Source: Trypanosoma brucei (taxonomy: Eukaryota). Taken from it: a stretch of 64,000 bases of DNA. Location: assembly GCA_000002445.1 (NCBI GenBank), contig CM000208.1, positions 2,080,001 through 2,144,000 on the forward strand. Direction: 5' to 3'. The translations under genes were made by a program, and so were the position numbers. The notes below the pieces were generated by a model. The model was not told the origin of the DNA, did no database searches, and worked only from the letters and a program-made list of their open reading frames with translations. Positions 39,563 through 60,488 of this stretch are shown here, one piece after another (position 1 is the first letter of the stretch; each line of letters begins with the position of its first letter).

Positions 39563-41377
39563 ACAAATGAAATAAACGAGATGTTTTTTGTTTTTGTTTT
39601 TTAGGCTGCAGCACCGTAGTCCCTGCTGGTGGTTGCATTTGGTTCTGCGACAGGAAGCTTAAGGGGGGCGGTGCCGACGTGCTTTTCTTCTTTTTTTTGT
39701 TGTTGTTACCTCATCTTTCAATGTGTTGCCGTATTTGTGTAGTGCGTAGATTTTACACCGTGCAGAGGTCTTTATGTGTGCATTTCAGCGCCGCATGTCT
39801 GCCCCATGCGCGTGGAGAACATCCGCTAGGGATAATAAATCATACATTACATCACGTCGATGCCGCGTTCCCTTCTGCATACGGTCATGTCTCGCCATTT
39901 CTTTGTATTAGTTGTCCTACCCATATCTTCATATCTGCGGTCTCGTGCTTTTTGCAGCATATTTACTTGCGTCCATGTGTATGGCTGCGTGAGCTTCGAC
40001 TCGTGTCATGTTCCATGCTTGCTGTGATTTGGTACGCTCCATTTTGTCATTCCTATCTTTCTATTTTTCTATTTTTCTATTTTTACTTTTAACTTTTTAA
40101 CTTGTGCAGTTTTTTTTTGTTTCTGTTCTTCCTTCTTCTTTCTTTTTTTTTTCTTAATCTTCCATGTCCGTTCGCATCAGTTTTGGAGGTGAGAAAGCAG
40201 GGCCGTTGGTGGGACAAATATTTTCACCACTAGCTGGGCGTGGGGAATGGGCAACACGGGTGCTTGTTACTCTTGTGTGTAATTGTACGTATATATTATG
40301 TGGTATATATATATATATATACGTGCATATGACCTTCGTCAGTTTATCGCTTCCGGCTTCCCCCACCGGCACGTTTTGTATGTTATATTTTCACCCATGC
40401 TTGTTTTTATTTAATTTTTTTTTTTAAAAGAGAAGAAAAACAATGTTTTTGTCGGTTCTTGTTGGCGAATGTTGTTTGTTTCCGGACGCAATGGTTTGCG
40501 GGATGTGGGATGTGGATATGGAGGAGAAGTGTCGATGTTTCTTTTCTTTTTTTTATTTGTTTGTTCAAGGTTTCTGGAAGAATTTTAATGCGCATATGCA
40601 CAGGAGGTTTCAGCAGCTGGGAACTGTGATAACATAAAGAAAGGAGAAGCACTTGAAGTTATCGGAGAATCGGCACGTGTTGTGAGAGTTTTTCTTTTTT
40701 TTTTTTTTTGTATTGACGTGTAAGGGACTTTGGGGCGTTGATCGCTGTGAGGGGAGGAAAATGTGGGGAAAGATGAGAGGAAGTTTTAAAGGAAAATTTG
40801 GGATCATATTCTTACAAGACTTCTTTGGTGGCGAAGTTACGTTTAGTTTTTCGTGTCGGTATCGCCGTTTCGGGAGGTGGTCGCACCACTTCAACGTTTC
40901 ACAATTAAATTCCATTACAACATTCGTATATTTCAACCTTTACACTGTTTCGTGCCGATAATGTTTTAATGTTTAAAAAAAAAATTAAGGTATCTGATCT
41001 TTTGTATGCAGTTAGGCCCATCAAATTGCGCCACTGAGCATTATATCGCGACTTCGTGTGCACTTTTGGCACTTCTCTCCTTTCCCTTTTTTAAAAATAT
41101 CTCTTTGCTTTCATGTACAATTGCTTCCCCGCCCTCGATTACTATTAACCCACCTCCTGCTTCTTATAATGTTTTCTTTTTTTTTTTTTTGCTTCTTTTC
41201 ACCGTTTGCTCACCTTACAATTTATCTTCATCAGCTGCGTGGCGTTGATTCCGCCCACCTCCTTTAATGGTGGGGTCGAGGACCATCCCGACATCCACGT
41301 TGGGGCGAAACCTGCGGGAAACGGAGGGGGCTGAAACCGACCGATTCGGTTTTTTTATAAGCTCAGAAGAAAAGGCC

Positions 41378-42289
41378 ATGGAGGAGGAATTCCTTCGTGT
41401 CCACCCCGAGAAGTTGAGTGTACGAGAGCGGTGGTCGAAAGCGTTGCTGCGGTGGGATGGTTGCGCTCATATGAAAAAGAAAAAGTTATGTCGAGTCGGT
41501 GTTCCGCAGTCACAAAGAAAAACAGTGTGGCCACTGCTTCTGATGACATATGGTTGGCAACTTGAGAAATACGGGGATTATCATCTTCTTATGAGCCAGC
41601 AGCCGCGCGATGCAGCAATGTTTGAAATAATCGAGCGTGACCTTGGAAGGACATTTCCAACCCATAGATTGTTTAATAAACCGGGTAGCACAGGGCAAAT
41701 GGGGTTGCGTAGTATTCTTCGCGCCTATGCTAATCTCAACCCGGAGACGGGGTATGTTCAAGGAATGGGCTTTCTCGTAGGAACACTTCTTATCCAAATT
41801 GGGGATGAAGAGAGCACATTCAGTGCATTTGTTTCGATTATGGAGAACCCAAGATACTCCATGGCCAAGTTATATGCTCCTGGATTCCCCCTTCTCTTTG
41901 TTCGCTTACATCAACTGCAGAAACTGTTGGGGCGCCATTGCAAGAAATTGCTCAAACGGCTCATGGAGTATGGCATTGAGTTGTCTACCTTTGCAGCCAA
42001 CTGGTACCTGACATTGTTTGCATACCACTTCAACTTTGGTTTACTCTCCCGTATTTGGGATATGTTCCTTTGTGAGGGGTGGAAGATCATTCATCGTGTG
42101 GCGATTGCTCTTCTATTGCTGCACAAAAGCGCTCTCGATCGCGCGAGGGATGGTGCAGAGTTACTGATTGCACTGAACACCGCTCATGAAGGAAAGGATG
42201 AGGTGGAGGTCATCCGTAAGGCCCTAAGTGTGAAGTTTAAGACGGCTGATTTAGTCCGGTGGGAGAGGAAGTTTTGTCAACAGCTCTAA
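41378..42289 (+). CDS. TBC-domain Rab GTPase-activating protein (TBC1D10/EPI64/Msb3-like), the short paralog.
   Basis: Arg-finger motif IERDLGRTFP (IxxDxxR) and Gln-finger motif GYVQGMGF (YxQ). The downstream helices (WYLTLFAYHF, RIWDMFLCEGWKIIHRVAIALL) are collinear with the second TBC gene in the window. The ORF track opens at 41267, and the first ATG (MEEEFLRV) is at 41378. Confidence 0.85.
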   Translation: MEEEFLRVHPEKLSVRERWSKALLRWDGCAHMKKKKLCRVGVPQSQRKTVWPLLLMTYGWQLEKYGDYHLLMSQQPRDAAMFEIIERDLGRTFPTHRLFNKPGSTGQMGLRSILRAYANLNPETGYVQGMGFLVGTLLIQIGDEESTFSAFVSIMENPRYSMAKLYAPGFPLLFVRLHQLQKLLGRHCKKLLKRLMEYGIELSTFAANWYLTLFAYHFNFGLLSRIWDMFLCEGWKIIHRVAIALLLLHKSALDRARDGAELLIALNTAHEGKDEVEVIRKALSVKFKTADLVRWERKFCQQL

Positions 42290-44625: not shown

Positions 44626-45882
44626 ATGTCGGATGGGGGGAATGTTCTTGGTCGACCAGGGGATTGCAACAACTGCATAGAAACTGCCAAAAGCAACTTT
44701 CATTGCTCCGCGTCCACTGATGCCTCTGCTGCCCAAAATGTTCCGGTACCAGTTCCAGACCCTGGTCTTAATGCTACCGTAGGTGCTGACTCAGTTCTTG
44801 CCCCTCCTGTTGGTACGGATGAACAAGACGATGACAGCTCTGTGGAGTCCGCCTCGGTGAGCGCTTCTGGCAACCCAGAAAATGAAGAAAATCTACTTGT
44901 CGATGAGTTTGGCTTCATTATCGATGAAGAAGAACATGATCGGGTGCAGCGGTACATCAGAGGCATTGACGGTAAACGTGTTGCTCGGCGCGAGGTGAAG
45001 TGGCAGAAGATGCAGGCGAACTGGGAGTCAATGAGCAAGAAACGTCGTAGTAAAGTGAAGTCGCGCTGCCGCAAGGGTATTCCATCTTCTTTTCGGGGTG
45101 CAGCGTGGCAGCTATTGATAGGCTCGTACTTGGAAATGCTGAACCCCGGCAACGAGGGCACATATGATTGCCTTCGCCTCAAAGATATCTCGGATGAAGG
45201 GTTGAAAGGAACAATTTCGCGGGACCTTCCGAGGACCTTCCCGAAGCACGTTTTGTTTAGAGAAGAGGGCGGTATTGGACAGACATTTTTGCGCAATGTA
45301 CTTCACGCCTACGCTAACATCGACCCGGAGGTGGGGTATGTGCAGGGCATGGCATTTGTTGTTGGTGCGCTCTACACGCAGATGACCGAGGAGGAGACAT
45401 TTTGGGCTTTGCACACTCTCATGAACGGCGAAAAGTATCGGTTGCGGGAGATGTACAAACCGGGGTTTCCTATGCTTCATAAACTTTTCTACCAGTTACA
45501 GCGGTTGATGGCCAAACTGCTTCCAAACCTATACGAGCACTTTGAGGAGCTTGGTGTTCACCCAACATACTATGCCTCACGGTGGTTTATGACACTGTTT
45601 GTGTATGACTTTAACTTTCGTGCTGTGTTGAGGATTTGGGACATTTTTTTGAGTGAGGGGTGGAAGATTATATTTCGTATCGCTATTGTTTTGCTGAAGT
45701 TGGAGGAGCGGCGATTGCTTGCCATGTCTTTTGAGGAGATCATCTTTGCAACGAAAACTCTTGAACAGGGCAAAGATCCTGATGAACTTATTCGGCGAGC
45801 ACATGGGGTCCGGTTTAAGACAGCTGAGCTGGAGGCCTTCGCGAGGGAGTATGAATTAAACAAACGTGAAGGGCAGGTGTGA
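44626..45882 (+). CDS. TBC-domain Rab-GAP, TBC1D10 (EPI64)/Msb3-Msb4-like, the long paralog.
   Basis: KGIPSSFRGAAWQLLIGS resembles TBC1D10A KGIPHHFRAIVWQLLCSA. ISRDLPRTFP carries the Arg finger and DPEVGYVQGMAFVVGALYTQMTEEETFWAL carries the Gln finger. WFMTLFVYDFNFRAVLRIWDIFLSEGWKIIFRIAIVLL resembles WFLTIF...RIFDIFMSEGLEIVFRVGLALL. Confidence 0.9.
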   Translation: MSDGGNVLGRPGDCNNCIETAKSNFHCSASTDASAAQNVPVPVPDPGLNATVGADSVLAPPVGTDEQDDDSSVESASVSASGNPENEENLLVDEFGFIIDEEEHDRVQRYIRGIDGKRVARREVKWQKMQANWESMSKKRRSKVKSRCRKGIPSSFRGAAWQLLIGSYLEMLNPGNEGTYDCLRLKDISDEGLKGTISRDLPRTFPKHVLFREEGGIGQTFLRNVLHAYANIDPEVGYVQGMAFVVGALYTQMTEEETFWALHTLMNGEKYRLREMYKPGFPMLHKLFYQLQRLMAKLLPNLYEHFEELGVHPTYYASRWFMTLFVYDFNFRAVLRIWDIFLSEGWKIIFRIAIVLLKLEERRLLAMSFEEIIFATKTLEQGKDPDELIRRAHGVRFKTAELEAFAREYELNKREGQV

Positions 45883-46759: not shown

Positions 46760-49700
46760 ATGAAGGCAGCGCAACCCGTTGTTGTGGATGTGGAAGAGAC
46801 ATTTGACAGCGTGGCTGAGAAGTTGTGGTGTGCGTTACCCTCCGTGGCCAAATTCCACGCCACATTTGAGAAGACACCAATTCTTGGTGCTGAAAGCGGC
46901 AATGTGGGTGTAGTGCCACAGCAATCCTCCGTGGAGGACACTTCTGAGGCTGCGGCAGCAAAACTGGACCCACCCGTGACAATACGGGATGCAGTGGTTC
47001 CTGTTGATGAGATGCAACACCTCGCTGGTTGTGTCTACACGGCGTGCCACACGAATCCTGTGGACGCCGATGTGGAAGCTGCTGTCGCCGCGATTTTAGA
47101 CAAAGGGGATGAGGAAAATTCTGTCGAATACAGCTGGGGTGATTTCCGTGAGTTTCTGGAGCGTGTCGAGTCGCAGTGGATGGAGTGGGCCGACATGGAC
47201 CAGAAGTGGCTGGCAGTCACGGAAAGACAGCACATTCAGGTACTGAAGGACTTGTTAGAGTCGATAACTTATGATGTAGAACCTTTTGGACTGCTGCCAC
47301 GTGACAAAGTTCTTACGATGCGTTCCACTATTGTTCACACGAAGCAGCTGCGGACTCTATTTAAGACTTTCGTTGATTTTGTGTCTCCTCCTGAGTACCC
47401 GGCGGTTTATGACAAGCTGTGGGGGCTGCTTATCGCATCTCAAAACGGCTGTGAAGTTGCGGAAGTGAGCCCAGAAACCCCTCTTGAGCTGAACTCTTTC
47501 ACTAAATTCGTTCTGTGGTTTTGCCTTTCGATATTCGTAAACGCCACGGAAGCAGGATTAGTTGTGGCTGCCAAGACGTTGTGGCTCAGGCACCTCAACG
47601 AGCGAGGTGTTATGTTAAAAAAACAGTTTGTGGATGTGTGTCGCTACATGTGTAAGTTTTACAGTGTTGGTGGAAGTGATGTAGAATATTTTGAAAAATG
47701 TTGTGCCCGCAGTGAAGAAGCTCTACAGGGCTCAGACGAACTTCCCCCATTCGCACTTTTCCAACAGTACATGCAGCCCACAGAAGGCCGCATGCTGGTC
47801 GACCCGAACGATCTCTACATTCCAGAAGAGCTCGAGCGGAGTAAATGGATGGAGGAACTTTACCGCATGAATTGCAGTTCCAACCGCATTATTGTTCATG
47901 GCCGGCGGGGTGTTGGAAAGTCACATCTGGCGGCTTCCTTGGCGAAACGGTTGGGTTGCGTTCACTTGGATGCTGGAGAGCTCGCCCTCGAAGCAGAAGC
48001 TGCAGCTCCGGCCGATCCACTCGGGGCACAGTTACGTGAATGCACGGATGCAGATGCCCCCATTTCGCTCGCAACCCTCGCAGCACTTGTACGCAAGAAG
48101 ATATGTAGCAGCGAAACACGGTATAGGGGTTATGTGTTCAGCGATATTCCATTTTTTTCTAGCGAGAATGACGCGGAGAAAATCAGTTTTTTTACCGATT
48201 GTGGTCTTTTGGATGAACTTGTGCCCACCACATTTGTGCTGGTGGATTGTGAAAACGAGTTTCACCCCGAACGACTTGAGGCTACACTGGCGGCACGGGA
48301 GTCAGACCACCAGGAAGAACTGAGTCTTTTGAAAGAGGAGAAAGAAGAGGAAGCTTCTTACGAGGCACTGGCGCAAAAAATTGAGGAGTTGAAGGCGACA
48401 TTGTCGCAAATTACTACAAAACAGGAGGTGGAGGGTGGTGCGGAGGCACCGGAAGGCGAGGAAGCGAACGCTCCGGAGCTGGATCCCGAGGAGGTTGAGA
48501 AGGACTTGAAACAGTTACTTGAGGATCAAACTGTACAAGAAGAGAGGAAGATTGAGCAGGCTGATTCCCGCATCGCCCGTACCAAGAAGTATAGGGAATT
48601 GAGATTAAGGAGGCTCGTTGCGCAAACTCTCTCCGAGGGATACGAAAGCGGTAATGAAATGTCTCTGACAGCATTGCCATGTTTCGAGACCGCTCTCTGT
48701 CGTGCCCGCTTGATGGGTCGGTGTTTGACGGTTGACTGTGCTTCCGTTGCGGAGGAGGCTGTTACCTACATTGTGGACACGCTGTCATTACAACCCTGCG
48801 TCAGACCCTGGGCCCTTGTTGACAAGGTGGAACGGGACCCCGAAAGGGAAGGAAGCGTATTTGATGACCCGGATATCGAGCGTCTCACGGAGGAGTTTGC
48901 CACCAACTTCGGTGTAATGACCTCAAGTCGGTGGAAGCGTTTCTGCCCTGTGACATTTGCTGAACATGGCGTCTTGGTAGAGGGCTCCATAGCTTTCGGA
49001 TGTGTGTTTCGGCAGCAGCTCTTTTACCTCGCATCCGAGGAAAAGCTTTCAATGTTTAGGGCAAACCCATGCCTCTATCTTGGTACACTTCCGCTGAGTA
49101 GGGAACCAATACTTCTTCTTTCCCTTGTTGAACCTCAGAATGATGCGCAACTTTCACCCACTGATATGCAAATATTGGTACGGAAACTGCACGAGCAACT
49201 GGATCTAACTCCCATGGCCTTTAGTGAGTTCACTACCCTTTGGGACAGTCACCGGTTGTTGAAGGGGAAGCGTGCAGAAGTGTTGTCAAATAGAACAAAG
49301 TATGAAGTTGTTGAGCGAAAGCAGCGTGCTGATCGGCTGAAGAAGCGTTTGGCGCAAGAGAAGCGAAAGAAGAAGTCTCAGAAGAGTCCTGGAAAAGGTA
49401 AGGGCAAGAAAGCTAAGTCTGTTGTGGAAGAAGTCACCGTAGAGGAATACAAGGGGTGGGAGAAGAAGGCGGAGGCACCGGAGACTATTGCCACACGCAT
49501 CGCGAAAAATTTGGAAGAGAGGCTTGAACGCCAGAATACACTTGTCCCCGTTTTGGTGCACGCGTTGGACGACAACCCCCTTAGTGGGTTCGATCAATTG
49601 TTTTCAGAGAAGGTCGTACCTCGCACAGTGGTCGTACTGCAGTATGAGAAACCGACGAAGGCGGAGGATAGTGCGGTGCTGGAACCGTCAGCAGCTGAAG

Positions 49701-52700
49701 GGGTGGAGGAAAATAGCGGCGAAGTTCCAAAGGTTCTTCTCCCGCAAGAGGTCGTGCTGGATAAGTTGTCAGACCTTCCGGACGGTGGTGTCGATATCGT
49801 GGCTGAGGTGTCACCTCATGACGTCGCCATTCACCGTATTGTCGTTAATGACAAGGATGTGCACGCGTTAGTCACGGAAATCATGCAAGCTGTATGCCCT
49901 GGTATGGACCCTGTTGGGGTGGGCGTTGTTGATGATGCGGTGGGTGAGGATGATGAGGAAGATGCACAGGAGTTTGATGATGATGAAAACGAGGAGGATG
50001 ATGTACCAACCGCAGTCAACCCCGCCATCAAACCAGGAAAAACGTTCCTAAACCAGTTTGGTACCACGTTGGAGTTTTGTCCGGTGACTCTTTGCGAAAG
50101 GAGACTCTTAGTACGAGGCCAGAGTGATCACTGTCTGCAGTATCGAGGTTACGTGTACACATTTGCTTCACTGGAGGCGAAAACAAAGTTTGAGTTCAAC
50201 CCCCTTCGCTACATGCGTTCCTCGTATTCGCTTCCCCCATGTCGCATGTGGATCGTTGGTCAGTCGAAAAGTGGTAAGAAGACCCTTGCACAATCACTCC
50301 ACGAAGCCTACGACGTGCCGTATTTCCAATACAATAGGAAGTTGTTTGACCAGTGCGTTGAAGTCGCTATGACTCCCACAGGTGGCGTGATTAGCAATAT
50401 TTTTATCCCACCGCAGACTTTTGACAATCCTTATCTTGCATTAGCCGCGGGGATCTTAAAAGAGGTGCAGGAGTTTGACCCAGAACAGGAGCGGCGCATG
50501 AAGTTGCGTGAGGAAGCTGAGCGAGAGCTGGAGCGACGCGAGGAGGCGGCAAACAATGGGGATGAAGAGGAGGATGAACTCGACGAAGAGGCCGAAGCGC
50601 GGTTGCAGGAACATTTGGCATTCGAGCCTGAAACTGAGCATGACCGTCAGTTGCGGCTAAGTGAGGCATACCTGAAGGTTGCGGGTTGTGTAACGCACAT
50701 AGAGCCTTTCGCTTCGAAGGGTTACATCATGGTGTGCCCTCCCTTTTCTGACGGTGATATAGAGGTTCTATCATCCGTGGACGCTATTCCTGAGGTTACA
50801 GTGAATATGGAGGTTTCGGATGAAATCTATATTAAACGTAACAAGGAGGCGATGAGCAGCGTAAGTTATTCTGAAATGTCATCAGGTGGTATACCAGAAG
50901 TCCGTGAGGAGCCCGTGGTTAATGAAGAAGCCAAACTTTTGAGGAGGTTAGAGTATGAAGATAGGCGGAAGGAGCGTGAAGTGGCCAGGTGGCGCCGTCG
51001 CCACATTGGCGCAGATGACCCGGAGTCAGACATAGACGAGGAGCTCGGGGACGAAGGAGCTGCTGGAGGTGGGAACGATGAAAGCCAAGAGGATGAAGCT
51101 AATGAGCGTCCATTTGATCAAGATTTGATCGTGGAAAAAGAAGCCGTTGGAGAATTTGCGGAAGCTGTTGAGGAGCGTTCAATCCCGATGATCGTACTCA
51201 ATGGCGATCTCTCCCGGAATGCCGTTTTTCGCAGGGCGGTCCGTCGGTTGAGTAGGTTTTTAGAAAATCGTCGCTCCCTTTTGCACGCCCCGCAAATTGT
51301 GCGGTATGAGGATGCCACTCGGATGCTCGAGTCAGGCGAGGCAACCCTGTCATGCTTCGGCAGCACCGATCCCGTGACGCTGTATGACCTCAGACACGGA
51401 AGTAGGCGTGTATGCAAATGGAGGCCGGATGGTGCATATCTGGAGGAGGAACCTTTGATAGAACCTGACTCGTCTTCTTCCGACGCCCAGGGGACAGCAG
51501 TTCCTGAAGGAAGTGAGGGTAAAGATGAATCAGAAGACACTCTCGACTCCGGCGATAGAAAGCCAGAGCCCCCTCAGTTAGACACGTCTTCCACGGAGGG
51601 AGACACTGAAAGTGGTGACGATGAGGAGATGAGTGAGCTGGATTCAGAGTTACTGGATGAAATCACCGAAAAATTCGCTAATCGACGTCGACGTGAATGG
51701 CTTCGTACATGCCAGCGTGTGGCCCTCCTCCATGGCCGTTTATTCTTCTTCGAGAGTGATGAAACGCTCTTACGCTACATGCAGAATCCTCTTCTTTTCA
51801 TTCAACAGCCTCCGCCACAGCCTCCACTACGGAGCATGCCCGTGATTACATTTTATGACGATGACGGTGCGTATCCCCCTGAGAATAGCGGGCCGTCGAG
51901 GAAGCGATGTACCGCTGAGCACGTAGCCTTCAATCTAAACTGGATTTATCTTTCTCTTCCGAAGCTCCTCTCCTGGAGCGCAGTAAATGCTTCCTTGCTT
52001 TCTTTGTCGAGAAAAGCTATTGATGCTGTTCTTAGCGGTTCTGTGGATGATGCTTTGGTGGCCCGGTTGCTAGGTCATCGACTCAATGCGGCTGATGCTA
52101 AGCAGAACGGCGTTGTGCTCCACAACTTGCCGAGGACCCCCGACCAATACCGTCTGCTTTTGGCGTGGGGACTTAAGGTGGACAAAATATTTCAGTTTGA
52201 TGACAATTACAGGGACGTTGCGACCCTAATGAAGTCAACGGCCACCATTGAGAAGCAACTGACGACAGCTCGAGTATCTGTCGCCGGTCTCTCTGAAATT
52301 TGCGACTGTATTGATGGTTTCGTCGTCAACGAGGGTCGTGCAATTTTATCTCACCTAACGGGGTTCCCTATAGATATAGACAATTCATACCACACGGTAG
52401 CCGATATTGAAACGCATCTCTCACCATATCGCTGGTTCTGCCCTTACAGTTGGTGTTTGGGTGAAAACCTTGTGGACCAGGAGAAGGCTGACTGCCGTTT
52501 CGCGGCTTTGTACGATGGCCAGTACTACTTTTTTTCTTCTGAGGAGTACCTCGAGAGGTTTCTTCTGTGTCCCTCGCAGGTGACGCTTCCACCCGGATTC
52601 AAAGCCCTCCCGACCCCTCTTCCCGTGCGGGTACAACCCAGCACAGAATATGCGTTCGAGTTGGAGGGATGCTGTCCTGTTCTCTTATACGATACACGGG

Positions 52701-53269
52701 AAAACCGAGGCCTTCGTGGTGTATTGGAACCTGTGGCAAGGAAAGGTAACCCGTCTTGCATTGTTGAGTATGGCGGTTGCTACTACGCCTTACTTGATGA
52801 GGAAGCAGTCCGAAGGTTCCTCATGCGTCCATGGCAATATGTGGACGGAGCGAAGTTGCCGCCCTCGCGGAAGGTGCCACTACCGGAAGGTAAGACGATG
52901 TCTACCATTGATGAAGAGGAGTTCATCCGCCGTATACTTTACGACCCTGTTGCGCACGCTCTGATAGCCGTGGCGGAGGTGCGCCCAAAGTACTACGGGC
53001 TTTCGCTGGAAGAGTCTGCGCTAAAGTATATTGCCCTTCACATGAAATGCTTTAATCCCAAGAATAGTGAGATACAAGCCAAGCAGTACAAGAAGAAGTT
53101 TGAAATTTTCAGCAAGCAATCTACATTGTACAAAACTATAACGATGCATTCCAACAGTATTACGCAGAATGAAAAGTTTGCAGAGCTTTGCGATGAGTGG
53201 GAGAATTCCAAGTATGGCCGCGAAAAGGAGCTTTCAATACACTGCGGTTGTGAGACCGAGCCTGTTTGA
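46760..53269 (+). CDS. Giant multidomain protein (2169 aa) with degenerate adenylate-kinase-like P-loop modules, acidic/coiled-coil stretches and four cysteine-depleted YHS/TRASH-like modules. It is a candidate flagellar/axonemal adenylate-kinase-domain protein.
   Basis: An uninterrupted 6.5-kb ORF. AK-like cores are IIVHGRRGVGKSHLA...YRGYVFSDIPF (GxxGxGK + GFLIDGFPR-like), MWIVGQSKSGKKTLAQ..., and NGVVLHNLPRTPDQYRLL...VDKIFQFD. There are long Glu/Asp-rich segments. Four modules match CP(V/Y)...(Y/F)xGxYYxFxSxExxxxFxxxPxxY, seen as FCPVTFAEHG...FYLASEEKLSMFRANPCLY; FCPVTLCERR...YRGYVYTFASLEAKTKFEFNPLRY; FCPYSWCLGE...YDGQYYFFSSEEYLERFLLCP; CCPVLLYDTR...YGGCYYALLDEEAVRRFLMRPWQY. Confidence 0.85.
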   Translation: MKAAQPVVVDVEETFDSVAEKLWCALPSVAKFHATFEKTPILGAESGNVGVVPQQSSVEDTSEAAAAKLDPPVTIRDAVVPVDEMQHLAGCVYTACHTNPVDADVEAAVAAILDKGDEENSVEYSWGDFREFLERVESQWMEWADMDQKWLAVTERQHIQVLKDLLESITYDVEPFGLLPRDKVLTMRSTIVHTKQLRTLFKTFVDFVSPPEYPAVYDKLWGLLIASQNGCEVAEVSPETPLELNSFTKFVLWFCLSIFVNATEAGLVVAAKTLWLRHLNERGVMLKKQFVDVCRYMCKFYSVGGSDVEYFEKCCARSEEALQGSDELPPFALFQQYMQPTEGRMLVDPNDLYIPEELERSKWMEELYRMNCSSNRIIVHGRRGVGKSHLAASLAKRLGCVHLDAGELALEAEAAAPADPLGAQLRECTDADAPISLATLAALVRKKICSSETRYRGYVFSDIPFFSSENDAEKISFFTDCGLLDELVPTTFVLVDCENEFHPERLEATLAARESDHQEELSLLKEEKEEEASYEALAQKIEELKATLSQITTKQEVEGGAEAPEGEEANAPELDPEEVEKDLKQLLEDQTVQEERKIEQADSRIARTKKYRELRLRRLVAQTLSEGYESGNEMSLTALPCFETALCRARLMGRCLTVDCASVAEEAVTYIVDTLSLQPCVRPWALVDKVERDPEREGSVFDDPDIERLTEEFATNFGVMTSSRWKRFCPVTFAEHGVLVEGSIAFGCVFRQQLFYLASEEKLSMFRANPCLYLGTLPLSREPILLLSLVEPQNDAQLSPTDMQILVRKLHEQLDLTPMAFSEFTTLWDSHRLLKGKRAEVLSNRTKYEVVERKQRADRLKKRLAQEKRKKKSQKSPGKGKGKKAKSVVEEVTVEEYKGWEKKAEAPETIATRIAKNLEERLERQNTLVPVLVHALDDNPLSGFDQLFSEKVVPRTVVVLQYEKPTKAEDSAVLEPSAAEGVEENSGEVPKVLLPQEVVLDKLSDLPDGGVDIVAEVSPHDVAIHRIVVNDKDVHALVTEIMQAVCPGMDPVGVGVVDDAVGEDDEEDAQEFDDDENEEDDVPTAVNPAIKPGKTFLNQFGTTLEFCPVTLCERRLLVRGQSDHCLQYRGYVYTFASLEAKTKFEFNPLRYMRSSYSLPPCRMWIVGQSKSGKKTLAQSLHEAYDVPYFQYNRKLFDQCVEVAMTPTGGVISNIFIPPQTFDNPYLALAAGILKEVQEFDPEQERRMKLREEAERELERREEAANNGDEEEDELDEEAEARLQEHLAFEPETEHDRQLRLSEAYLKVAGCVTHIEPFASKGYIMVCPPFSDGDIEVLSSVDAIPEVTVNMEVSDEIYIKRNKEAMSSVSYSEMSSGGIPEVREEPVVNEEAKLLRRLEYEDRRKEREVARWRRRHIGADDPESDIDEELGDEGAAGGGNDESQEDEANERPFDQDLIVEKEAVGEFAEAVEERSIPMIVLNGDLSRNAVFRRAVRRLSRFLENRRSLLHAPQIVRYEDATRMLESGEATLSCFGSTDPVTLYDLRHGSRRVCKWRPDGAYLEEEPLIEPDSSSSDAQGTAVPEGSEGKDESEDTLDSGDRKPEPPQLDTSSTEGDTESGDDEEMSELDSELLDEITEKFANRRRREWLRTCQRVALLHGRLFFFESDETLLRYMQNPLLFIQQPPPQPPLRSMPVITFYDDDGAYPPENSGPSRKRCTAEHVAFNLNWIYLSLPKLLSWSAVNASLLSLSRKAIDAVLSGSVDDALVARLLGHRLNAADAKQNGVVLHNLPRTPDQYRLLLAWGLKVDKIFQFDDNYRDVATLMKSTATIEKQLTTARVSVAGLSEICDCIDGFVVNEGRAILSHLTGFPIDIDNSYHTVADIETHLSPYRWFCPYSWCLGENLVDQEKADCRFAALYDGQYYFFSSEEYLERFLLCPSQVTLPPGFKALPTPLPVRVQPSTEYAFELEGCCPVLLYDTRENRGLRGVLEPVARKGNPSCIVEYGGCYYALLDEEAVRRFLMRPWQYVDGAKLPPSRKVPLPEGKTMSTIDEEEFIRRILYDPVAHALIAVAEVRPKYYGLSLEESALKYIALHMKCFNPKNSEIQAKQYKKKFEIFSKQSTLYKTITMHSNSITQNEKFAELCDEWENSKYGREKELSIHCGCETEPV

Positions 53270-55258: not shown

Positions 55259-57025
55259 GTGATTATGGCTTCGTTATCACCCCTGGAGTCAAGAAGAAAC
55301 ATGCAATTGTCCCCTTATGCTTCCCCGCGGCGCAACCCAATGGCAACACTCCACACGCGTGAAGCCCCTTTGGAGGGCCGTGAGGCAGAGGCTGCGTTGA
55401 TATCTGCCACGCTCGCAAATGCTCAGCTGCGCGCATCACAGGCCGCCGTAGAGCAGCGCTCGGAAGAGGTGGATGATCTCCGAGAGGCCCGAGATGCCCT
55501 GGAGAGGGAAATGGCGGAAAAGGACGAGGAGAGCCAGGCAGCAGCAACATACTTTGAAAAGCAAATGACTTTGGTGAAGGAGGTGAACCGCAAACTCAAG
55601 GAAGAATTGGTTAACGAGCGTGCGACGGCTGAACTGCGTATGGAAGAGGTTGTGGGCAAAATGCAGGAGGAACTTCAAGAGCGTGATAGCCTTATAGCAA
55701 CTTTGAAACAGCGCCTTGAGGATGTTGAGAGTGACCTCAGAAGCGTTATCGAGTTCAGGGACGCGCGCGATGCGCACGAAAAGGAAATTAAAGAACTTCG
55801 TGTAGTTTACGCAGAAGAGTGTGAAAACCATCAGCGCAATGAGCGAGAGATGCGGCTTCAGTGCATGGAAGAGCGTGTGAGGCTTCGGGAAAAGGAGGAA
55901 AAGTATGAGCGAGAGCGGGAAGAAGAGGTTGCACGTTTAGCGCGTAGTTACCTTAGCAAAAAGACGCGTGCTATAGAAGAACAGAACAAAAGCCTCGAGA
56001 CACACATCTCCTTTCTTTCCAGTGACGCAGATGCTGCGCGAAATGAAGCAGAGACTTTGCAAAAGACTAACAACGGGCTAAGGCGAGATGCCGAACTAGC
56101 ATCTTCGGTGGAGACAATGCACGCAGTTCATCACGCGAAGCAGAGGAACGAGATTGCCCTCCTCAGAGATCAAGTGAGAACCACCGAAGACAACTTAAAT
56201 AGTTCATTGGAAGAGTATGAGAAGCGATTGCAGAAACAGGAGAAGATCCATGCGGCTGAGATGATGAAACTCTCAAGTGAGCGTGACAAGTGGCGGTCAA
56301 CCGCAGAGAATCTGCGTGCTGACTTGCTAAAGATGCGTTCAATTTCAGAAAAGTTAATCGAACAACGTTCCGACATGGAAACGTTCTTTCACCAGGCCCT
56401 GGAACAGGTTCGCCAGGAGGTGTCAGAGGAACGACGGAACGCTCCGCACAAAATTTGTTTCCGCAAGCCTCCCAAAGGGATCCCGTCTGATTTGCTGCAG
56501 CTTACGCGGGGCAGGGAGCCGCTCATGATCGGTGACCGCAGCCATGTGATGCCGACATCGCATTCCACACTTACGAAAAAGGTGGTCGATGCCAACGTGT
56601 CGTGCACAAACAGCAGCGTAGTTTCTCGTAGTGCCGACACGGGGGGCGGGTCACTTCCATTAATCACAATGTCGGGATCTCCGTTCTTTTCTCCAGCAAA
56701 TGTGCTTGTGCCACCAATAGAATGGCGCAGCACCAGTCGTGAAATGCAGGCGACGAACGGCGGTAGACTCGTTGAGGAGCGTCCATTGGGAATCAGCGAC
56801 CTCCTGAGTGTTCCAACTGCGCCGAAGATAAAGGACCTCCATACAGTTGATATATCGCAACTAAGTTGGTCCGATAAGGAGCGCGTATTGCAATTGTTGT
56901 TCAAGCACATGAAGAGGGGGGCCACTGCAAAAAAAACGGAAAAGCGGGTCCCCACGCATGACACGAATTTTTTGTCGATCACTCCATCTGCGACCCCTGA
57001 AGTAAACACATTTCTCACGGATTAA
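55259..57025 (+). CDS. Coiled-coil protein (588 aa), hypothetical.
   Basis: A strongly heptad-patterned, Glu/Arg/Lys/Leu-rich sequence over ~350 residues (EEVDDLREARDALEREMAEKDEESQ...), followed by a Ser/Thr/Pro-rich tail. Confidence 0.65.
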   Translation: MIMASLSPLESRRNMQLSPYASPRRNPMATLHTREAPLEGREAEAALISATLANAQLRASQAAVEQRSEEVDDLREARDALEREMAEKDEESQAAATYFEKQMTLVKEVNRKLKEELVNERATAELRMEEVVGKMQEELQERDSLIATLKQRLEDVESDLRSVIEFRDARDAHEKEIKELRVVYAEECENHQRNEREMRLQCMEERVRLREKEEKYEREREEEVARLARSYLSKKTRAIEEQNKSLETHISFLSSDADAARNEAETLQKTNNGLRRDAELASSVETMHAVHHAKQRNEIALLRDQVRTTEDNLNSSLEEYEKRLQKQEKIHAAEMMKLSSERDKWRSTAENLRADLLKMRSISEKLIEQRSDMETFFHQALEQVRQEVSEERRNAPHKICFRKPPKGIPSDLLQLTRGREPLMIGDRSHVMPTSHSTLTKKVVDANVSCTNSSVVSRSADTGGGSLPLITMSGSPFFSPANVLVPPIEWRSTSREMQATNGGRLVEERPLGISDLLSVPTAPKIKDLHTVDISQLSWSDKERVLQLLFKHMKRGATAKKTEKRVPTHDTNFLSITPSATPEVNTFLTD

Positions 57026-57758: not shown

Positions 57759-60488
57759 ATGATCCCCGTGGCAGGCCGCCGCAAAGGCCTGAGTCAGGCA
57801 CCTAATTTGGGGTCTGCGGGGAACAATGAGACAAACTCATCGCTTGGTGGAGGCTTCACCACCTCAACCGGAGCAGCACCTTCACCTGCTACCGCCGGGG
57901 ACGCCCTTTCGTTTCTTGACTTCGATAACGACACCGGACCCACACAAGCTTCCGCACCCGTCGCATCACGAAGGGGAGCCCCCACAGCTGCACCCCCTCA
58001 GCGGGACACACTTTCGTTTCTCGATTTCGATGACGATGAAGGACCTTCCAAGCCTTCAGCACCTGCTGCGTCAAGGAGGACGGCACCCCCAGTCGCCCCC
58101 GCCCCTGCGCAGAGCGCCCCGTCATTTCTTGATTTTGACGATGATGACGGACCCACAAAACCACCCCCGCGATCGCAACCTCCGGCATCTGCCGCCTCCA
58201 GAGGGGCACCCGCTCAGGCAGTGCCCTCCTTTCTCGATTTCGATGACGATGCTCCTGCAAATGTTCCTTCAACACCTCAACCCTCTGCTGCGGTGTCTTT
58301 AGAAATCACTAATCGGTGGCACGAACTGCAGAAGGAGCTCCAACGCGTGCAAGTTGAGACCCTCAGTTGCGAGGAGGTGATTCGGAAGTTCGAAAGCGGC
58401 GAACACGAATTGTGCCTGGAAGTGGGGACTCTAGACGAACAAGTGCAGCAGAAGCAGGCGGCGGGGGAGAAGGCAGCTGCAGCGCGAGAAGAGTTGGAGA
58501 GGGCGCTGGAACTAAGACGCCAACAGCTCACAGAAGAGAACGAGGCAAAGCACAAACAACTATTAGTGGAGGGTGTCAATACCATGCGAGAGCGGTACGA
58601 GGACGAGCTGAGTACTCTAACTGCATCTGTAGAAGACCAGAAAGTGAACCTGTTGGCTGTTGAAGAGAAGCACAGCACTATGGATGGGTCGATCAGCAGT
58701 GTTGAATTATATGAACGAGCGGTTTGTCAACTGCAAGAGAGGTTGAAGGCAACGCTGCGCGACATAAGCGCTGCGGTTTGCTTGCGAATCAAACCGTCGC
58801 TCACTAATTGCATCAGAGACACCGTAGCACAGTTTGCCCAGGAGAGGTCGGATATGCAGTGCAATGATCGGCGTAGAAGACGCGAGCAGTTGGACACTTT
58901 CCAGAAGAATGTGGATAAAGGATTCTCATCATTTTGTGAAGAACGGCGAACTAAACATCAGTCGCGAGTGGACTCCATCTTTGGTGGAGAGAGATTTCGT
59001 TTCCAAGCAGAGGTTGAGCGACGGTTTACCACGTCTAGGATGGAGTTTATGGAACGACAGAAGGAGCTTACAGCTGAGGCAAAGAAAGGAGCGCTGATTA
59101 CTTTTGAGGAGATGACGCGTCGAGCAGCCGCAGATATGGAGGTGTTTCAGAGAAAGATGAAGGAAGAACTGAGGTTGATGGAGGAGCGATATGCTGCTGA
59201 GTTGGCTCATCTTGCGCGGCTTCAGGCTTCGGAGAAGGCGGCGGCACTTCGACCCCGCTGTGAAAATGATGAGCTGGGCTCCAGCGTTACTGCCGCCACG
59301 CCTTCAGTTTGTAAGGCAGTTGAAAAGGATGTGAGGTACTTGCGGGAGCGCGTGGAACAGATTAAGCAGTCTGTCTCACTCGATATCCAGGATCTTTCTA
59401 TTGCTTCACAGCACCCTAGATGTGAATCTCTCTCTGCGTTGGGGAAGGAGCGCATGCTGGCGGAACTGGAGGAAAAAGTGCGTCTGCTTAGTCGCCAGTT
59501 CGGTGCTCAGTGGCAGCGTTTTAAATCTGCAGTGGGACCGCTGCATCAATCCGTGCAGCTGATGGTACGTGGGTTGCAGGACGGGCGAGTGAGAGCCGCT
59601 GCTCAACAACAGGAAACTGAATGTATTTATCGTGAGTGGACCCAAAGTGTTAGGAAGGAATTGTCAATGTGTTTGACAAGTGGTGGGGCGTCGTCAGAGT
59701 CTGCGGAATTACAAAGCGGGCTTGTGTCTATGACTCGGGTAGTGGAGATGGCACGGGCGCAGGTTCAGGCTGTACTGGAGGCTCAGAGGCATCGCTCCGA
59801 GGTGCTAAGGGGCTTTAATTCCGAGGTACAGGAGAGCCTATCTGCACTTGTTAAGCAGCGCGTAGCCTCAAACGGCACCCTCCATTCTGTATTTGATGAG
59901 TATGAGCGTCTGTCCCATGCGGCGGCGGAGGTGGAGGCGAAGCGTAGGGCCCTTGAGGTGGCAGCAGAAAATTACGATCACGCGAAACAAGTATTGGAAA
60001 AGGAACGTGAAACATTCGATGGTAGGTTGAAGGTGGCGCAAGAGCTTGGCGTCAAACTCCGGATCGATTCAGAGAAACTGGAGAGGAAGGCAGCGCGGTA
60101 TGCGCGCGCTCGGCTTTCTGGTGGCTCACAGTTTGTACGGGCTGTTACAATGGAAAAACCACTTCGTGATCGTCTGCAGTGCGGAAAACGTATGGAGTGG
60201 AGGAGTCAATCTCACGGACATTCTCCCAGAAAGCGGGCGGCGGATTGTGTGTCTGGCCACCCATCGCCTAGTTCCGCGGAGTACAGGCGCTCTGCAACTG
60301 CGTCGAACGGTGGAGATGTGCTCGACTTTGTTACTCTTCTGAGTTTTGATGATGCCGTGGGGCAAGGTGACTCTGGAGACTTGCAACACAAGCGGCAACC
60401 GTGCCAGTATAGAAGCACTACGTCGTTTGATCCGTCAAGTTGTGGCAGTGACGGAACGTACTTTACAACACCTTCAACTCTCAACTAA
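57759..60488 (+). CDS. Coiled-coil protein (909 aa) with an N-terminal disordered region carrying four SFLDFDDD-type linear motifs.
   Basis: N-terminal ~170 aa: four copies of (A/T)(L/P)SFLDFD(N/D)D(E/D)GP spaced 35-37 aa apart inside an Ala/Pro/Ser-rich sequence, which is a degenerate ~108-bp DNA repeat. The rest is long coiled-coil sequence. Confidence 0.7.
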   Translation: MIPVAGRRKGLSQAPNLGSAGNNETNSSLGGGFTTSTGAAPSPATAGDALSFLDFDNDTGPTQASAPVASRRGAPTAAPPQRDTLSFLDFDDDEGPSKPSAPAASRRTAPPVAPAPAQSAPSFLDFDDDDGPTKPPPRSQPPASAASRGAPAQAVPSFLDFDDDAPANVPSTPQPSAAVSLEITNRWHELQKELQRVQVETLSCEEVIRKFESGEHELCLEVGTLDEQVQQKQAAGEKAAAAREELERALELRRQQLTEENEAKHKQLLVEGVNTMRERYEDELSTLTASVEDQKVNLLAVEEKHSTMDGSISSVELYERAVCQLQERLKATLRDISAAVCLRIKPSLTNCIRDTVAQFAQERSDMQCNDRRRRREQLDTFQKNVDKGFSSFCEERRTKHQSRVDSIFGGERFRFQAEVERRFTTSRMEFMERQKELTAEAKKGALITFEEMTRRAAADMEVFQRKMKEELRLMEERYAAELAHLARLQASEKAAALRPRCENDELGSSVTAATPSVCKAVEKDVRYLRERVEQIKQSVSLDIQDLSIASQHPRCESLSALGKERMLAELEEKVRLLSRQFGAQWQRFKSAVGPLHQSVQLMVRGLQDGRVRAAAQQQETECIYREWTQSVRKELSMCLTSGGASSESAELQSGLVSMTRVVEMARAQVQAVLEAQRHRSEVLRGFNSEVQESLSALVKQRVASNGTLHSVFDEYERLSHAAAEVEAKRRALEVAAENYDHAKQVLEKERETFDGRLKVAQELGVKLRIDSEKLERKAARYARARLSGGSQFVRAVTMEKPLRDRLQCGKRMEWRSQSHGHSPRKRAADCVSGHPSPSSAEYRRSATASNGGDVLDFVTLLSFDDAVGQGDSGDLQHKRQPCQYRSTTSFDPSSCGSDGTYFTTPSTLN

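What the first reader, a model, noticed from the sequence alone, without database searches (positions are those of the whole stretch)
46760..53269. Giant protein combining degenerate adenylate-kinase modules with four cysteine-less YHS/TRASH-like modules.
At least two, possibly three, regions have AK-like cores. The P-loops are IIVHGRRGVGKSH and IVGQSKSGKKT, and the NMP-binding-like strings are YRGYVFSDIPF and VVLHNLPRTPDQY, but the canonical AK catalytic arginines look incomplete. Separately, four ~45-aa modules fit the YHS/TRASH/MYM-type pattern (DPVCGM...Y-G--YYFCS--C---F---P--Y). The aromatic scaffold and the N-terminal CPV are conserved, but the metal-ligating YYFCSxxC cysteines are replaced (YTFASLEA, YFFSSEEY, YYALLDEE, FYLASEEK). 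This would be a metal-site-less YHS-like fold repeated four times, interleaved with AK-like domains and long acidic segments. I do not recognise this architecture as a described family. It could be a structural (axonemal?) nucleotide-handling scaffold.
Basis: partly seen in the sequence, partly recalled or inferred. Interest (0 to 1): 0.65.

Follow-up and report, generated by a model that had tools for sequence, protein, structure and literature searches.

The report
Trypanosome adenylate kinase 9 orthologue
This giant gene is the Trypanosoma brucei version of adenylate kinase 9, a conserved flagellar protein that forms the head of radial spoke 3 in mammals; it is ordinary, and its odd cysteine-less "YHS-like" modules occur in the whole family.

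Summary
The 2169-aa ORF at 46760-53269 (+) is real and identical to T. brucei TREU927 XP_823102.1.

Two counts need correcting:
- There are five YHS-like modules, not four. The third is split by an acidic insert.
- There are four AK-like lobes, not two or three.

72 of 78 large family members also have exactly five modules. Only the CPV cysteine is conserved, so the missing metal site is ancient and family-wide. The link to YHS is statistically real but modest (Pfam YHS 31.2 bits against a cut-off of 30.3). The module is also shared with CFAP206.

One mildly new point: in kinetoplastids each AK lobe lacks either the Walker A motif or the Arg88-equivalent, in a conserved mosaic. That suggests a mainly structural role.

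Verdict: already known, low interest.

The parts
46760..53269 (+). Complete ORF, 2169 aa: T. brucei AK9 orthologue (XP_823102.1; Tb927.10.8780 by gene-order inference)
   Evidence: ORF listing and translation. Exact sequence match. Colinear phmmer match to AK9 chains 9d2f_A (E 1.4e-50) and 9fqr_Xf (E 4.9e-44).
46760..47875 (+). N-terminal extension, aa 1-372. It is lineage-restricted and of unknown fold; vertebrate AK9 lacks it.
   Evidence: No Pfam hit. jackhmmer finds the full extension only in the 2040-2350-aa members and partial matches in P0045, P0011 and P0041. Mouse AK9 lobe I starts at about residue 33.
47876..48319 (+). AK-like lobe I, aa ~373-520. Walker A GRRGVGKS is intact. The Arg36 and Arg88 equivalents are replaced (ELAL, DIPF).
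   Evidence: Pfam ADK 28.5 bits against a cut-off of 26.8. Alignment to E. coli-type Adk 6hap_A. Motifs conserved in the kinetoplastid-type members.
48938..49081 (+). YHS-like module 1, aa 727-774 (FCPVT...FYLASEEKLSMFRANPCLY)
   Evidence: Family module HMM 57.3 bits. Aligns to AK9 residues ~335-391. Weak Pfam FAP206 hit, E 0.066.
49094..49894 (+). Degenerate AK-like lobe II, aa ~779-1045. The beta1 strand PILLLSL is kept, the P-loop is replaced by VEPQNDAQ, and the GFPR position reads DDNPLS.
   Evidence: Colinear with AK9 lobe II: the match continues from module 1 into the position of the AK9 P-loop. Motif survey. The AF2 model shows alternating strands and helices here but at low confidence, pLDDT 50-70.
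50069..50215 (+). YHS-like module 2, aa 1104-1152 (FCPVT...YTFASLEAKTKFEFNPLRY)
   Evidence: Pfam YHS 24 bits, E 3.9e-5, and FAP206 28.1 bits. Family HMM 57.6 bits. Aligns to AK9 residues 914-969.
50234..51334 (+). AK-like lobe III, aa ~1159-1525, with long acidic inserts. The P-loop GQSKSGKKT is kept. The GFPR position reads VCPPF, so there is no Arg88 equivalent.
   Evidence: Alignment to mouse AK9 lobe III, where GFILDGFPR is intact. Conserved across the kinetoplastid-type members. The AF2 core aa ~1189-1340 has pLDDT about 80.
51356..51805 (+). YHS-like module 3, split. N-half aa ~1533-1556 (TDPVTLYD...), acidic insert aa ~1557-1651, C-half aa 1652-1682 (LFFFESDETLLRYMQNPLLF).
   Evidence: C-half scores 17.9 bits with the family HMM. 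In-silico removal of the insert gives a full-length match of 34.3 bits, against a shuffled control of 26.4 +/- 1.1. Corresponds to AK9 residues ~1330-1389.
51824..52414 (+). AK-like lobe IV, aa ~1689-1885. There is no Walker A (YDDDGAYPPENSG...). The Arg88 equivalent is kept (HNLPRT).
   Evidence: phmmer to AK8 (E 4.3e-6) and to E. coli Adk (about 0.01) over Adk positions 43-110. NLPR is conserved in the group.
52436..52576 (+). YHS-like module 4, aa 1893-1939 (FCPYSW...YYFFSSEEYLERFLLCP)
   Evidence: Pfam YHS 20.1 bits, E 6.6e-4. Family HMM 43.4 bits. AF2 block pLDDT ~84-92, beta-hairpin plus helix.
52670..52846 (+). YHS-like module 5, aa 1971-2029 (CCPVLL...YYALLDEEAVRRFLMRPWQY)
   Evidence: Family HMM 46.1 bits. 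AF2 block pLDDT ~78-94. Aligns to AK9 residues 1706-1766.
52898..53209 (+). C-terminal helical region, aa ~2047-2150. It is homologous to the AK9 C-terminal part that docks on RS3 in mammals.

Best explanation
The ORF encodes the Trypanosoma brucei orthologue of adenylate kinase 9 (AK9), a structural subunit of the head of axonemal radial spoke 3 (RS3).

Shown here:
- The protein has the AK9 family layout: AK lobe I, then three 'YHS-like module + AK lobe' units (II, III, IV), then two further YHS-like modules, then a helical C-terminal region.
- The modules are small beta-hairpin-plus-helix domains. They are related to bacterial YHS domains and to a sub-domain of CFAP206. Across eukaryotes they keep only one conserved cysteine.

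Inferred from the mammalian, Tetrahymena and Leishmania literature:
- The C-terminal helices pair with the DPY30 domain of an AK7 copy and dock on CFAP91. This fixes the protein to RS3.
- The AK lobes, the connector modules and the long acidic loops form the flat, negatively charged spoke head that faces the central pair.

My own inference:
- With only one conserved cysteine, the modules most likely do not bind metal and act as rigid connectors.
- In kinetoplastids every AK lobe has lost either the Walker A motif (II, IV) or the Arg88-equivalent AMP-site arginine (I, II, III). The protein therefore probably works mainly as a scaffold, perhaps still binding nucleotide at lobes I and III, and not as a four-site ATP regenerator.
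For: Identity and homology:
- Exact match to T. brucei XP_823102.1.
- Colinear multi-segment phmmer matches to AK9 chains 9d2f_A (E 1.4e-50) and 9fqr_Xf (E 4.9e-44).
- An exhaustive profile search finds 696 representatives. Named ones are snake AK9, a chytrid adenylate kinase, Papus 'K18533/AK9', a Strigomonas culicis hypothetical protein (named CFAP206 by UniRef) and Gefionella okellyi.
- 72 of 78 large members have exactly five modules. Mouse and bovine AK9 each give five module stretches.

Function, from the literature:
- AK9 plus two AK7 and two LRRC23 form the RS3 head, and AK9 docks through its C-terminus.
- Tetrahymena Ak9 is lost with RS3.
- The Leishmania 96-nm preprint lists RS3 'AK9' = LmxM.36.6030 / Tb927.10.8780, lists Top3 mass-spectrometry intensities for it, and reports that its deletion swims slowly.
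- A 165-aa EF-hand ORF at 33312-33809 fits Tb927.10.8710, which places this ORF at Tb927.10.8780.

Modules:
- Only the CPV cysteine is conserved.
- Pfam YHS and FAP206 hits.
- The module profile hits CFAP206 (E 0.008) and the toluene/o-xylene monooxygenase alpha-subunit segment aa 414-447 (E 0.018).

Catalytic motifs.
Against: - No direct localisation or structure for the T. brucei protein was available here. Neither trypanosomatid 96-nm structure (9E5C, 9Y6S) contains a chain matching it, and the Leishmania table marks AK9 as 'Appears in model: No'.
- The equation with Tb927.10.8780 rests on gene order, not on a sequence look-up. The L. tarentolae entry is given as 1356 aa, much shorter than 2169 aa.
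- Pfam does not call a DPY30 domain in the C-terminus.
- The 'mainly scaffold' inference is weak. Lobes I and IV of animal AK9 also lack the Arg88 equivalent, yet human AK9 has been reported to have kinase activity (Amiri et al. 2013, cited in PMC10056885). Motif loss therefore does not prove inactivity.
- The AF2 model of lobes II and III is poor (pLDDT 50.8).
Confidence: 0.9

Rival explanations
1. It is a previously undescribed protein family that combines AK-like and YHS-like domains.
For: T. brucei records call it 'hypothetical protein, conserved'. No paper in the library holds 'YHS', 'adenylate kinase' and 'cilia' together.
Against: It matches AK9 colinearly in sequence and structure. Family members are already named AK9/K18533 or 'YHS domain-containing protein/adenylate kinase family enzyme'. 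Precomputed Pfam lists already carry PF00406, PF04945 and PF12018 for the orthologues.
Confidence: 0.02
2. [quoted passage not shown]
Against: Only profile positions 198-249 of 272 match, which is the YHS-like sub-module alone. The trypanosomatid CFAP206 is a different gene, Tb927.7.6280 (706 aa in L. tarentolae), and is modelled on RS2. The rest of this protein is AK9-like.
Confidence: 0.03
3. It is AK9, but a fully working enzyme. Lobes I and III (and perhaps others) catalyse adenylate or nucleoside-phosphate transfer and regenerate ATP for the dyneins, as proposed for mammals.
For: Walker A motifs in lobes I and III are conserved through the kinetoplastid-type members. Mammalian AK9 is described as having three or four catalytic domains. 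Axonemes of a Tetrahymena RS3 mutant have reduced AK activity. Human AK9 activity has been reported (reference).
Against: In T. brucei no lobe has both the Walker A motif and the Arg88 equivalent. Lobe III, which is canonical in snake, chytrid and malawimonad AK9 (GFPR or GYPK), reads VCPPF. Lobe II has lost its P-loop.
Confidence: 0.35
4. The YHS-like modules still bind a metal, using the CPV cysteine with other ligands, and act as metal or redox sensors in the spoke head.
For: The CPV cysteine is about 90% conserved in modules 1, 2, 4 and 5. The modules are related to the YHS family, which I recall Pfam describing as putatively metal-binding.
Against: It is the only conserved cysteine. No other column reaches 30% Cys except column 21 of module 5 (0.33). 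Module 3 has the CPV cysteine in only 44% of members, and T. brucei module 3 has TDPV. The closest solved non-ciliary relative found, the monooxygenase alpha-subunit segment, also lacks the FCSxxC motif.
Confidence: 0.07

Closest known systems
Adenylate kinase 9 (AK9; KEGG K18533); solved as chain A of 9D2F (mouse RS3) and chain Xf of 9FQR (bovine sperm 96-nm repeat)
   Different: The T. brucei protein has a 372-aa N-terminal extension. Its module 3 is split by a ~95-aa acidic insert. Lobes II and IV have lost the Walker A motif. Lobe III has lost the GFPR arginine that animal, chytrid and malawimonad AK9 keep. Lobe IV keeps an arginine (NLPRT) where other AK9s have a hydrophobic residue.
CFAP206 / FAP206 (Pfam PF12018), the radial spoke 2 docking protein; T. 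brucei chain 9e5c_4z
   Different: CFAP206 has no AK lobes, and the rest of its profile does not match. It sits at a different place, the RS2 base and inner junction.
YHS domain (Pfam PF04945), found in bacterial copper ATPases and phenol/toluene hydroxylase alpha subunits
   Same: The profile matches over positions 11-44 of 47. The whole protein scores 31.2 bits, and 19 of 45 family modules hit individually. In the reverse direction, the module profile hits toluene/o-xylene monooxygenase alpha aa 414-447 at E 0.018. That chain also gives short local Foldseek matches of 27-44 columns at 25-37% identity, but their positions were not reported and they are not significant (E 2-4).
   Different: The FCSxxC cysteines are absent in all five module positions across eukaryotes. 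The N-terminal DPVCG element is CPV or DPV without the following cysteine. The setting is eukaryotic and axonemal, and the modules are repeated five times.
Canonical adenylate kinases (E. coli Adk, AK1; Pfam PF00406)
   Same: Lobes I and IV align to Adk over the P-loop-to-core segment and over Adk positions 43-110 respectively. Lobe I passes the Pfam ADK threshold.
   Different: No T. brucei lobe has the full catalytic set (Lys13 P-loop, Arg36, Arg88). The lobes carry large acidic inserts. LID-region arginines could not be aligned reliably.

Membership tests
AK9 (adenylate kinase 9 family) | Several AK-type lobes in one chain, colinear with animal AK9 (four lobes) | tested here: met
   phmmer gives ordered segments: query 376-472 to AK9 33-127, 1064-1197 to 880-1012, 1232-1542 to 1015-1340, and 1874-2133 to 1606-1861. 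Module 1 plus the start of lobe II aligns to AK9 337-499. Lobes II and IV are recognisable but degenerate.
AK9 (adenylate kinase 9 family) | Five cysteine-less CPV...NP..Y modules: three directly upstream of lobes II-IV and two near the C-terminus | tested here: met
   There are five modules in T. brucei and in 72 of 78 large family members. Mouse and bovine AK9 each give five stretches.
AK9 (adenylate kinase 9 family) | Conserved C-terminal region (two modules plus a helical docking part) | tested here: met
AK9 (adenylate kinase 9 family) | Best match in both directions (orthology rather than paralogy) | tested here: inconclusive
   In the forward direction AK9 is by far the best PDB match, and named relatives are AK9. 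No T. brucei proteome search with animal AK9 was possible. The literature table equates AK9 with Tb927.10.8780.
AK9 (adenylate kinase 9 family) | Location in the RS3 head with AK7, LRRC23 and CFAP91 | not testable with these tools
   Known for mouse, bovine and Tetrahymena. Trypanosomatid AK9, AK7, CFAP61, CFAP251 and CFAP91 orthologues are listed, but AK9 is not in the models.
AK9 (adenylate kinase 9 family) | Adenylate or nucleoside-phosphate kinase activity | not testable with these tools
   From sequence alone, no lobe has both the Walker A motif and the Arg88 equivalent.
YHS domain (PF04945) | Match to the family profile at or above Pfam's gathering score | tested here: met
   The whole protein scores 31.2 bits against a cut-off of 30.3, summed over two stretches. 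Single modules score 24 and 20 bits, below the cut-off but with E 3.9e-5 and 6.6e-4. Modules 1, 3 and 5 do not hit YHS.
YHS domain (PF04945) | Conserved cysteines thought to bind metal (DPVCG... and FCSxxC) | tested here: not met
   The only conserved cysteine is in CPV. There is none at the FCSxxC positions in any of the five module positions across 72 proteins.
YHS domain (PF04945) | Shared fold (small beta-hairpin plus helix) | tested here: inconclusive
   AF2 gives a hairpin plus helix in modules 4 and 5 at block pLDDT 78-94. Matches to the toluene/o-xylene monooxygenase alpha chain are local and not significant (Foldseek E 2-4; profile E 0.018). No domain-only fold search was run.
CFAP206 (PF12018) | Match over the length of the FAP206 profile | tested here: not met
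   Only profile positions 198-249 of 272 are matched. The protein should not be filed as CFAP206 despite the UniRef name.
Canonical adenylate kinase (PF00406) | P-loop lysine together with the AMP- and ATP-site arginines (E. coli Lys13, Arg36, Arg88, Arg123, Arg156, Arg167) | tested here: not met
   Lobe I: Lys present, Arg36 and Arg88 replaced. Lobe II: P-loop and Arg88 lost. Lobe III: Lys present, Arg88 replaced by Phe. Lobe IV: no P-loop, Arg88 kept. LID arginines could not be aligned reliably.

The most novel reading that the evidence does not exclude
Kinetoplastid AK9 may be a pseudoenzyme. Each of its four AK lobes has lost a different essential element, in a mosaic conserved across the kinetoplastid-type members (I: Walker A only; II: neither; III: Walker A only; IV: Arg88 equivalent only). 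On this reading the trypanosome RS3 head is a nucleotide-binding scaffold or sensor and not an ATP regenerator, and ATP buffering falls to AK7 and the other flagellar adenylate kinases. A second strand is that the five cysteine-less YHS-derived connector modules, shared with CFAP206, are an ancient and so far undiscussed structural domain of radial spokes.
Probability: 0.35. Interest if true: 0.4.

Novelty: already known. Interest (0 to 1): 0.2.

Why it matters
The finding settles an annotation question. A T. brucei 'hypothetical protein', which UniRef mislabels as CFAP206, is the AK9 subunit of the radial spoke 3 head. In mammals AK9 loss is linked to infertility and hydrocephalus. The Leishmania orthologue is needed for normal swimming speed.

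Two small points may interest cilia specialists:
- The five non-catalytic modules of AK9 are cysteine-less relatives of the bacterial YHS domain and are shared with CFAP206. The AK9 structure papers searched here do not mention this.
- Kinetoplastid AK9 looks catalytically eroded. That would make it a natural test of whether the RS3 head needs AK activity or only AK-shaped building blocks.

Neither point changes the picture of what the gene is.

Tried and rejected
- The search for homologous proteins with the full protein and with the C-terminal profile returned only 8 and 11 proteins. The exhaustive search was needed to see the family.
- AF2 of aa 700-1530 with a 7-sequence alignment gave a poor model (pLDDT 50.8, pTM 0.30). 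I used it only for secondary structure and treated its Foldseek hits beyond AK9 as suggestive at most.
- phmmer of lobe III alone (aa 1155-1527) found nothing in the PDB. Its AK9 correspondence rests on the full-length alignment.
- Pairwise local alignment of the degenerate lobes to E. coli Adk was noisy. For lobe II it latched onto the lysine-rich linker. I relied on motif-anchored comparisons instead.
- Pfam finds no DPY30 domain in the C-terminus and nothing in the N-terminal 372 aa.
- The T. brucei 96-nm paper (Xia et al. 2025, PMC12165780) is not held, and 'Tb927.10.8780' occurs in no searchable main text. The gene identifier is therefore inferred from gene order.
- I looked at the neighbours for a functional link (RabGAP-TBC, OTU1, ABC1 and others) and dismissed it. 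This is a trypanosome polycistron with unrelated genes.

Full report
**The observation.** The window carries a single long ORF at 46760..53269 on the + strand, 2169 aa. All large ORFs in the window lie on the + strand with spacers between them, and GC is about 50%. That is the layout of a trypanosomatid polycistron. The sequence is identical to T. brucei brucei TREU927 XP_823102.1 / EAN78274.1, annotated 'hypothetical protein, conserved'. UniRef calls it either 'Cilia- and flagella-associated protein 206' or 'Adenylate kinase'. Orthologues of 47-57% identity exist in T. congolense, T. grayi, T. cruzi, T. rangeli and T. vivax.

**What it is.** A phmmer search against all PDB chain sequences gives two outstanding hits. 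One is 9d2f_A, 'Adenylate kinase 9', 1894 aa, E 1.4e-50. The other is 9fqr_Xf, 1910 aa, E 4.9e-44. Each has several segments in the same order along both proteins. 9D2F is the mouse respiratory-cilia RS3 structure and 9FQR the bovine sperm 96-nm repeat.

An exhaustive profile search with the C-terminal region found 696 cluster representatives at E <= 1e-3, 98 of them at E <= 1e-30. Most are 1400-2400-aa proteins with the match at their C-terminus. Named members are:
- corn-snake 'adenylate kinase 9';
- a chytrid 'adenylate kinase';
- the prokinetoplastid Papus, 'K18533/AK9';
- a Strigomonas culicis hypothetical protein (named CFAP206 by UniRef);
- the malawimonad Gefionella okellyi;
- a JGI protein already called 'YHS domain-containing protein/adenylate kinase family enzyme'.

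So this is the AK9 family, old and widespread among flagellated eukaryotes. It is not an undescribed architecture.

**What is known about AK9.** In mammals one AK9, two AK7 and two LRRC23 form the RS3 head. AK9 is described with four (Leung et al., PMC11779644) or three (mouse RS3 preprint, 10.1101/2025.05.19.654877) catalytic domains. Lobes I and IV are held open by LRRC23. The AK9 C-terminus pairs with the DPY30 domain of one AK7 copy and docks on CFAP91. The head surface is strongly acidic. Tetrahymena Ak9 disappears with RS3.

For trypanosomatids, the Leishmania 96-nm preprint (PMC12637542) lists under RS3 'AK9 = LtaP36.6190 / LmxM.36.6030 / Tb927.10.8780', marked 'Appears in model: No'. 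It lists Top3 mass-spectrometry intensities for LmxM.36.6030. Its deletion mutant grows normally with flagella of normal length but swims slowly: 5.6 um/s with directionality 0.17, against roughly 8-9 um/s and 0.3 for mutants scored 'Normal'.

The same table gives a 165-residue centrin-like protein as Tb927.10.8710. The window has a 165-aa EF-hand ORF at 33312-33809, with five long ORFs between it and this gene. The only AK-like gene nearby is this ORF. Its flanking genes are a RabGAP-TBC and an OTU1 protease. I therefore equate it with Tb927.10.8780. That is an inference, not a look-up.

No chain in either trypanosomatid structure (9E5C, 9Y6S) matches this protein. Its place in the trypanosome spoke has therefore not been seen directly.

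**Anatomy: the modules.** HMMs built from single modules of the Trypanosoma orthologues recognise the other modules. An HMM iterated over 78 large family members finds exactly five modules in 72 of them. In T. brucei they lie at aa 727-774, 1104-1152, 1653-1682, 1893-1939 and 1971-2029. A profile of 45 family modules also gives five stretches in each mammalian AK9 chain.

Module 3 is split. 'TDPVTLYD...' at aa ~1536 is separated from 'LFFFESDETLLRYMQNPLLF' by an acidic insert of ~95 aa that is poorly conserved. Removing aa 1557-1651 in silico raises the HMM score from 22.4 (C-half only) to a full-length 34.3. With 200 shuffled N-halves the score is 26.4 +/- 1.1, maximum 30.1.

Modules 1-3 each sit directly before the first strand and P-loop position of AK lobes II-IV. 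Modules 4 and 5 follow lobe IV and precede the helical C-terminus.

**Are the modules YHS-like, and metal-free?** On the whole protein, Pfam YHS scores 31.2 bits (cut-off 30.3) and FAP206 scores 41.5 bits (cut-off 33), both on aa ~1104-1153. Scanned one at a time:

| Module | Pfam YHS | Pfam FAP206 |
|---|---|---|
| 1 | no hit | E 0.066 |
| 2 | 24 bits, E 3.9e-5 | 28.1 bits |
| 3 | no hit | no hit |
| 4 | 20.1 bits, E 6.6e-4 | E 0.19 |
| 5 | no hit | E 0.012 |

AF2 places a beta-hairpin followed by a helix in modules 4 and 5, with 10-residue block pLDDT of 78-94. It predicts the same elements, at low confidence, in modules 1 and 2.

Across 72 proteins the only conserved cysteine is the one in CPV: about 90% in modules 1, 2, 4 and 5, and 44% in module 3. 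No cysteine is conserved at the FCSxxC positions.

It is an ancient property of the whole family and is shared with CFAP206. In this library no paper combines 'YHS', 'adenylate kinase' and 'cilia', and the Leung paper does not mention YHS or zinc.

**Anatomy: the AK lobes.**

| Lobe | Residues | Walker A | Arg88-equivalent position | Main evidence |
|---|---|---|---|---|
| I | ~373-520 | kept (GRRGVGKS) | lost (DIPF); Arg36 equivalent also lost (ELAL) | Pfam ADK 28.5 vs 26.8; alignment to Adk |
| II | ~779-1045 | lost (PILLLSL strand, then VEPQNDAQ) | lost (DDNPLS) | |
| III | ~1159-1525 | kept (GQSKSGKKT) | lost (GYIMVCPPF, where mouse AK9 has GFILDGFPR) | |
| IV | ~1689-1885 | lost | kept (HNLPRT) | aligns to Adk positions 43-110; AK8 E 4e-6 |

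This mosaic is conserved in the 2040-2350-aa members that share the N-terminal extension. Elsewhere in the family, snake, chytrid and malawimonad AK9 keep Walker A in all four lobes and GFPR (or GYPK) in lobe III. The chytrid and malawimonad also keep it in lobe II; snake lobe II could not be aligned there. They too lack the arginine in lobes I and IV. Only 11 of 72 members have a strict G.{4}GK[ST] motif at all four positions, although that pattern misses GK.T variants such as the T. brucei lobe III loop.

Part of the degeneracy is family-wide (lobes I and IV). The extra erosion of lobes II and III is specific to the lineage.

**Mechanism.**
- Shown: the homology, the domain order and the state of the motifs.
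- Taken from the literature on orthologues: the RS3-head location, docking through the C-terminus, the acidic head surface and the motility phenotype.
- Inferred by me: the modules are rigid, metal-free connectors, and kinetoplastid AK9 is mainly a scaffold that may still bind nucleotide at lobes I and III.

The last inference is the weakest. Lobes I and IV of animal AK9 also lack the Arg88 equivalent, yet kinase activity has been reported for human AK9 (Amiri et al. 2013, cited).

**Comparison and novelty.** The protein meets the testable defining features of AK9: lobe order, five modules and the C-terminal region. It fails full-length membership of CFAP206, so the UniRef name is misleading. 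It meets the YHS profile threshold but lacks the cysteines. No lobe meets the canonical AK catalytic set. The gene, its family, its structure in mammals and its trypanosomatid assignment are all already in the record, so I rate it 'already known' and of low interest. What is left over is minor: the YHS/CFAP206 relationship of the connector modules is not discussed in the AK9 papers I could search, and the kinetoplastid protein may be a pseudoenzyme.

Noticed in passing
window 46760-47875 (aa 1-372 of the ORF): This N-terminal extension has no Pfam match. It is conserved in the 2040-2350-aa members that share it and partly in P0045, P0011 and the prokinetoplastid P0041. Vertebrate AK9 lacks it. 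Its fold and role are unknown.
   Followed up: partly
PDB chain 9fqr_Xf: The tool's PDB table names this 1910-aa chain 'Cilia- and flagella-associated protein 276'. It aligns colinearly with AK9 and has five AK9 modules, so the label looks like a mapping error.
   Followed up: partly
UniRef name of the window protein: UniRef calls the protein 'Cilia- and flagella-associated protein 206'. Only the ~50-aa YHS-like sub-module of PF12018 matches. The preprint's table gives Tb927.7.6280 as the T. brucei CFAP206 orthologue; T. brucei CFAP206 is solved as 9e5c_4z.
   Followed up: yes
P0010 (T. vivax orthologue, 1892 aa): It lacks the stretch from the end of module 3 to most of module 4, which includes lobe IV. 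This is probably an assembly or gene-model gap and not biology.
   Followed up: no
Supplementary table of PMC12637542: L. tarentolae 'AK9' (LtaP36.6190) is listed as 1356 aa, whereas T. brucei and most members sharing its N-terminal extension are 2040-2350 aa. The gene model may be truncated, or the identifier mapping may need checking.
   Followed up: no
window 33312-33809 (+): This 165-aa EF-hand (centrin-like) ORF probably corresponds to Tb927.10.8710. The Leishmania preprint tentatively models the orthologue as a centrin-like subunit of inner dynein arm e. If so, two axonemal genes lie 13 kb apart in this polycistron.
   Followed up: partly
window 41267-42289 and 44626-45882 (+): Two RabGAP-TBC paralogues (Pfam E 2e-55 and 8e-64) flank a 389-aa ORF that has no Pfam match. 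This may be a local duplication.
   Followed up: no
window 9072-11105 (-): A 677-aa ORF lies antisense to the 1307-aa + strand ORF at 7045-10968. Every other ORF of 250 aa or more is on the + strand, so this one is most likely a chance antisense ORF.
   Followed up: no
window 7045-10968, 26929-28269, 55259-57025, 57759-60488, 61356-63656 (+): These large + strand ORFs (446-1307 aa) have no Pfam family at E <= 0.001. The 588-aa and 909-aa ones look coiled-coil-rich.
   Followed up: no
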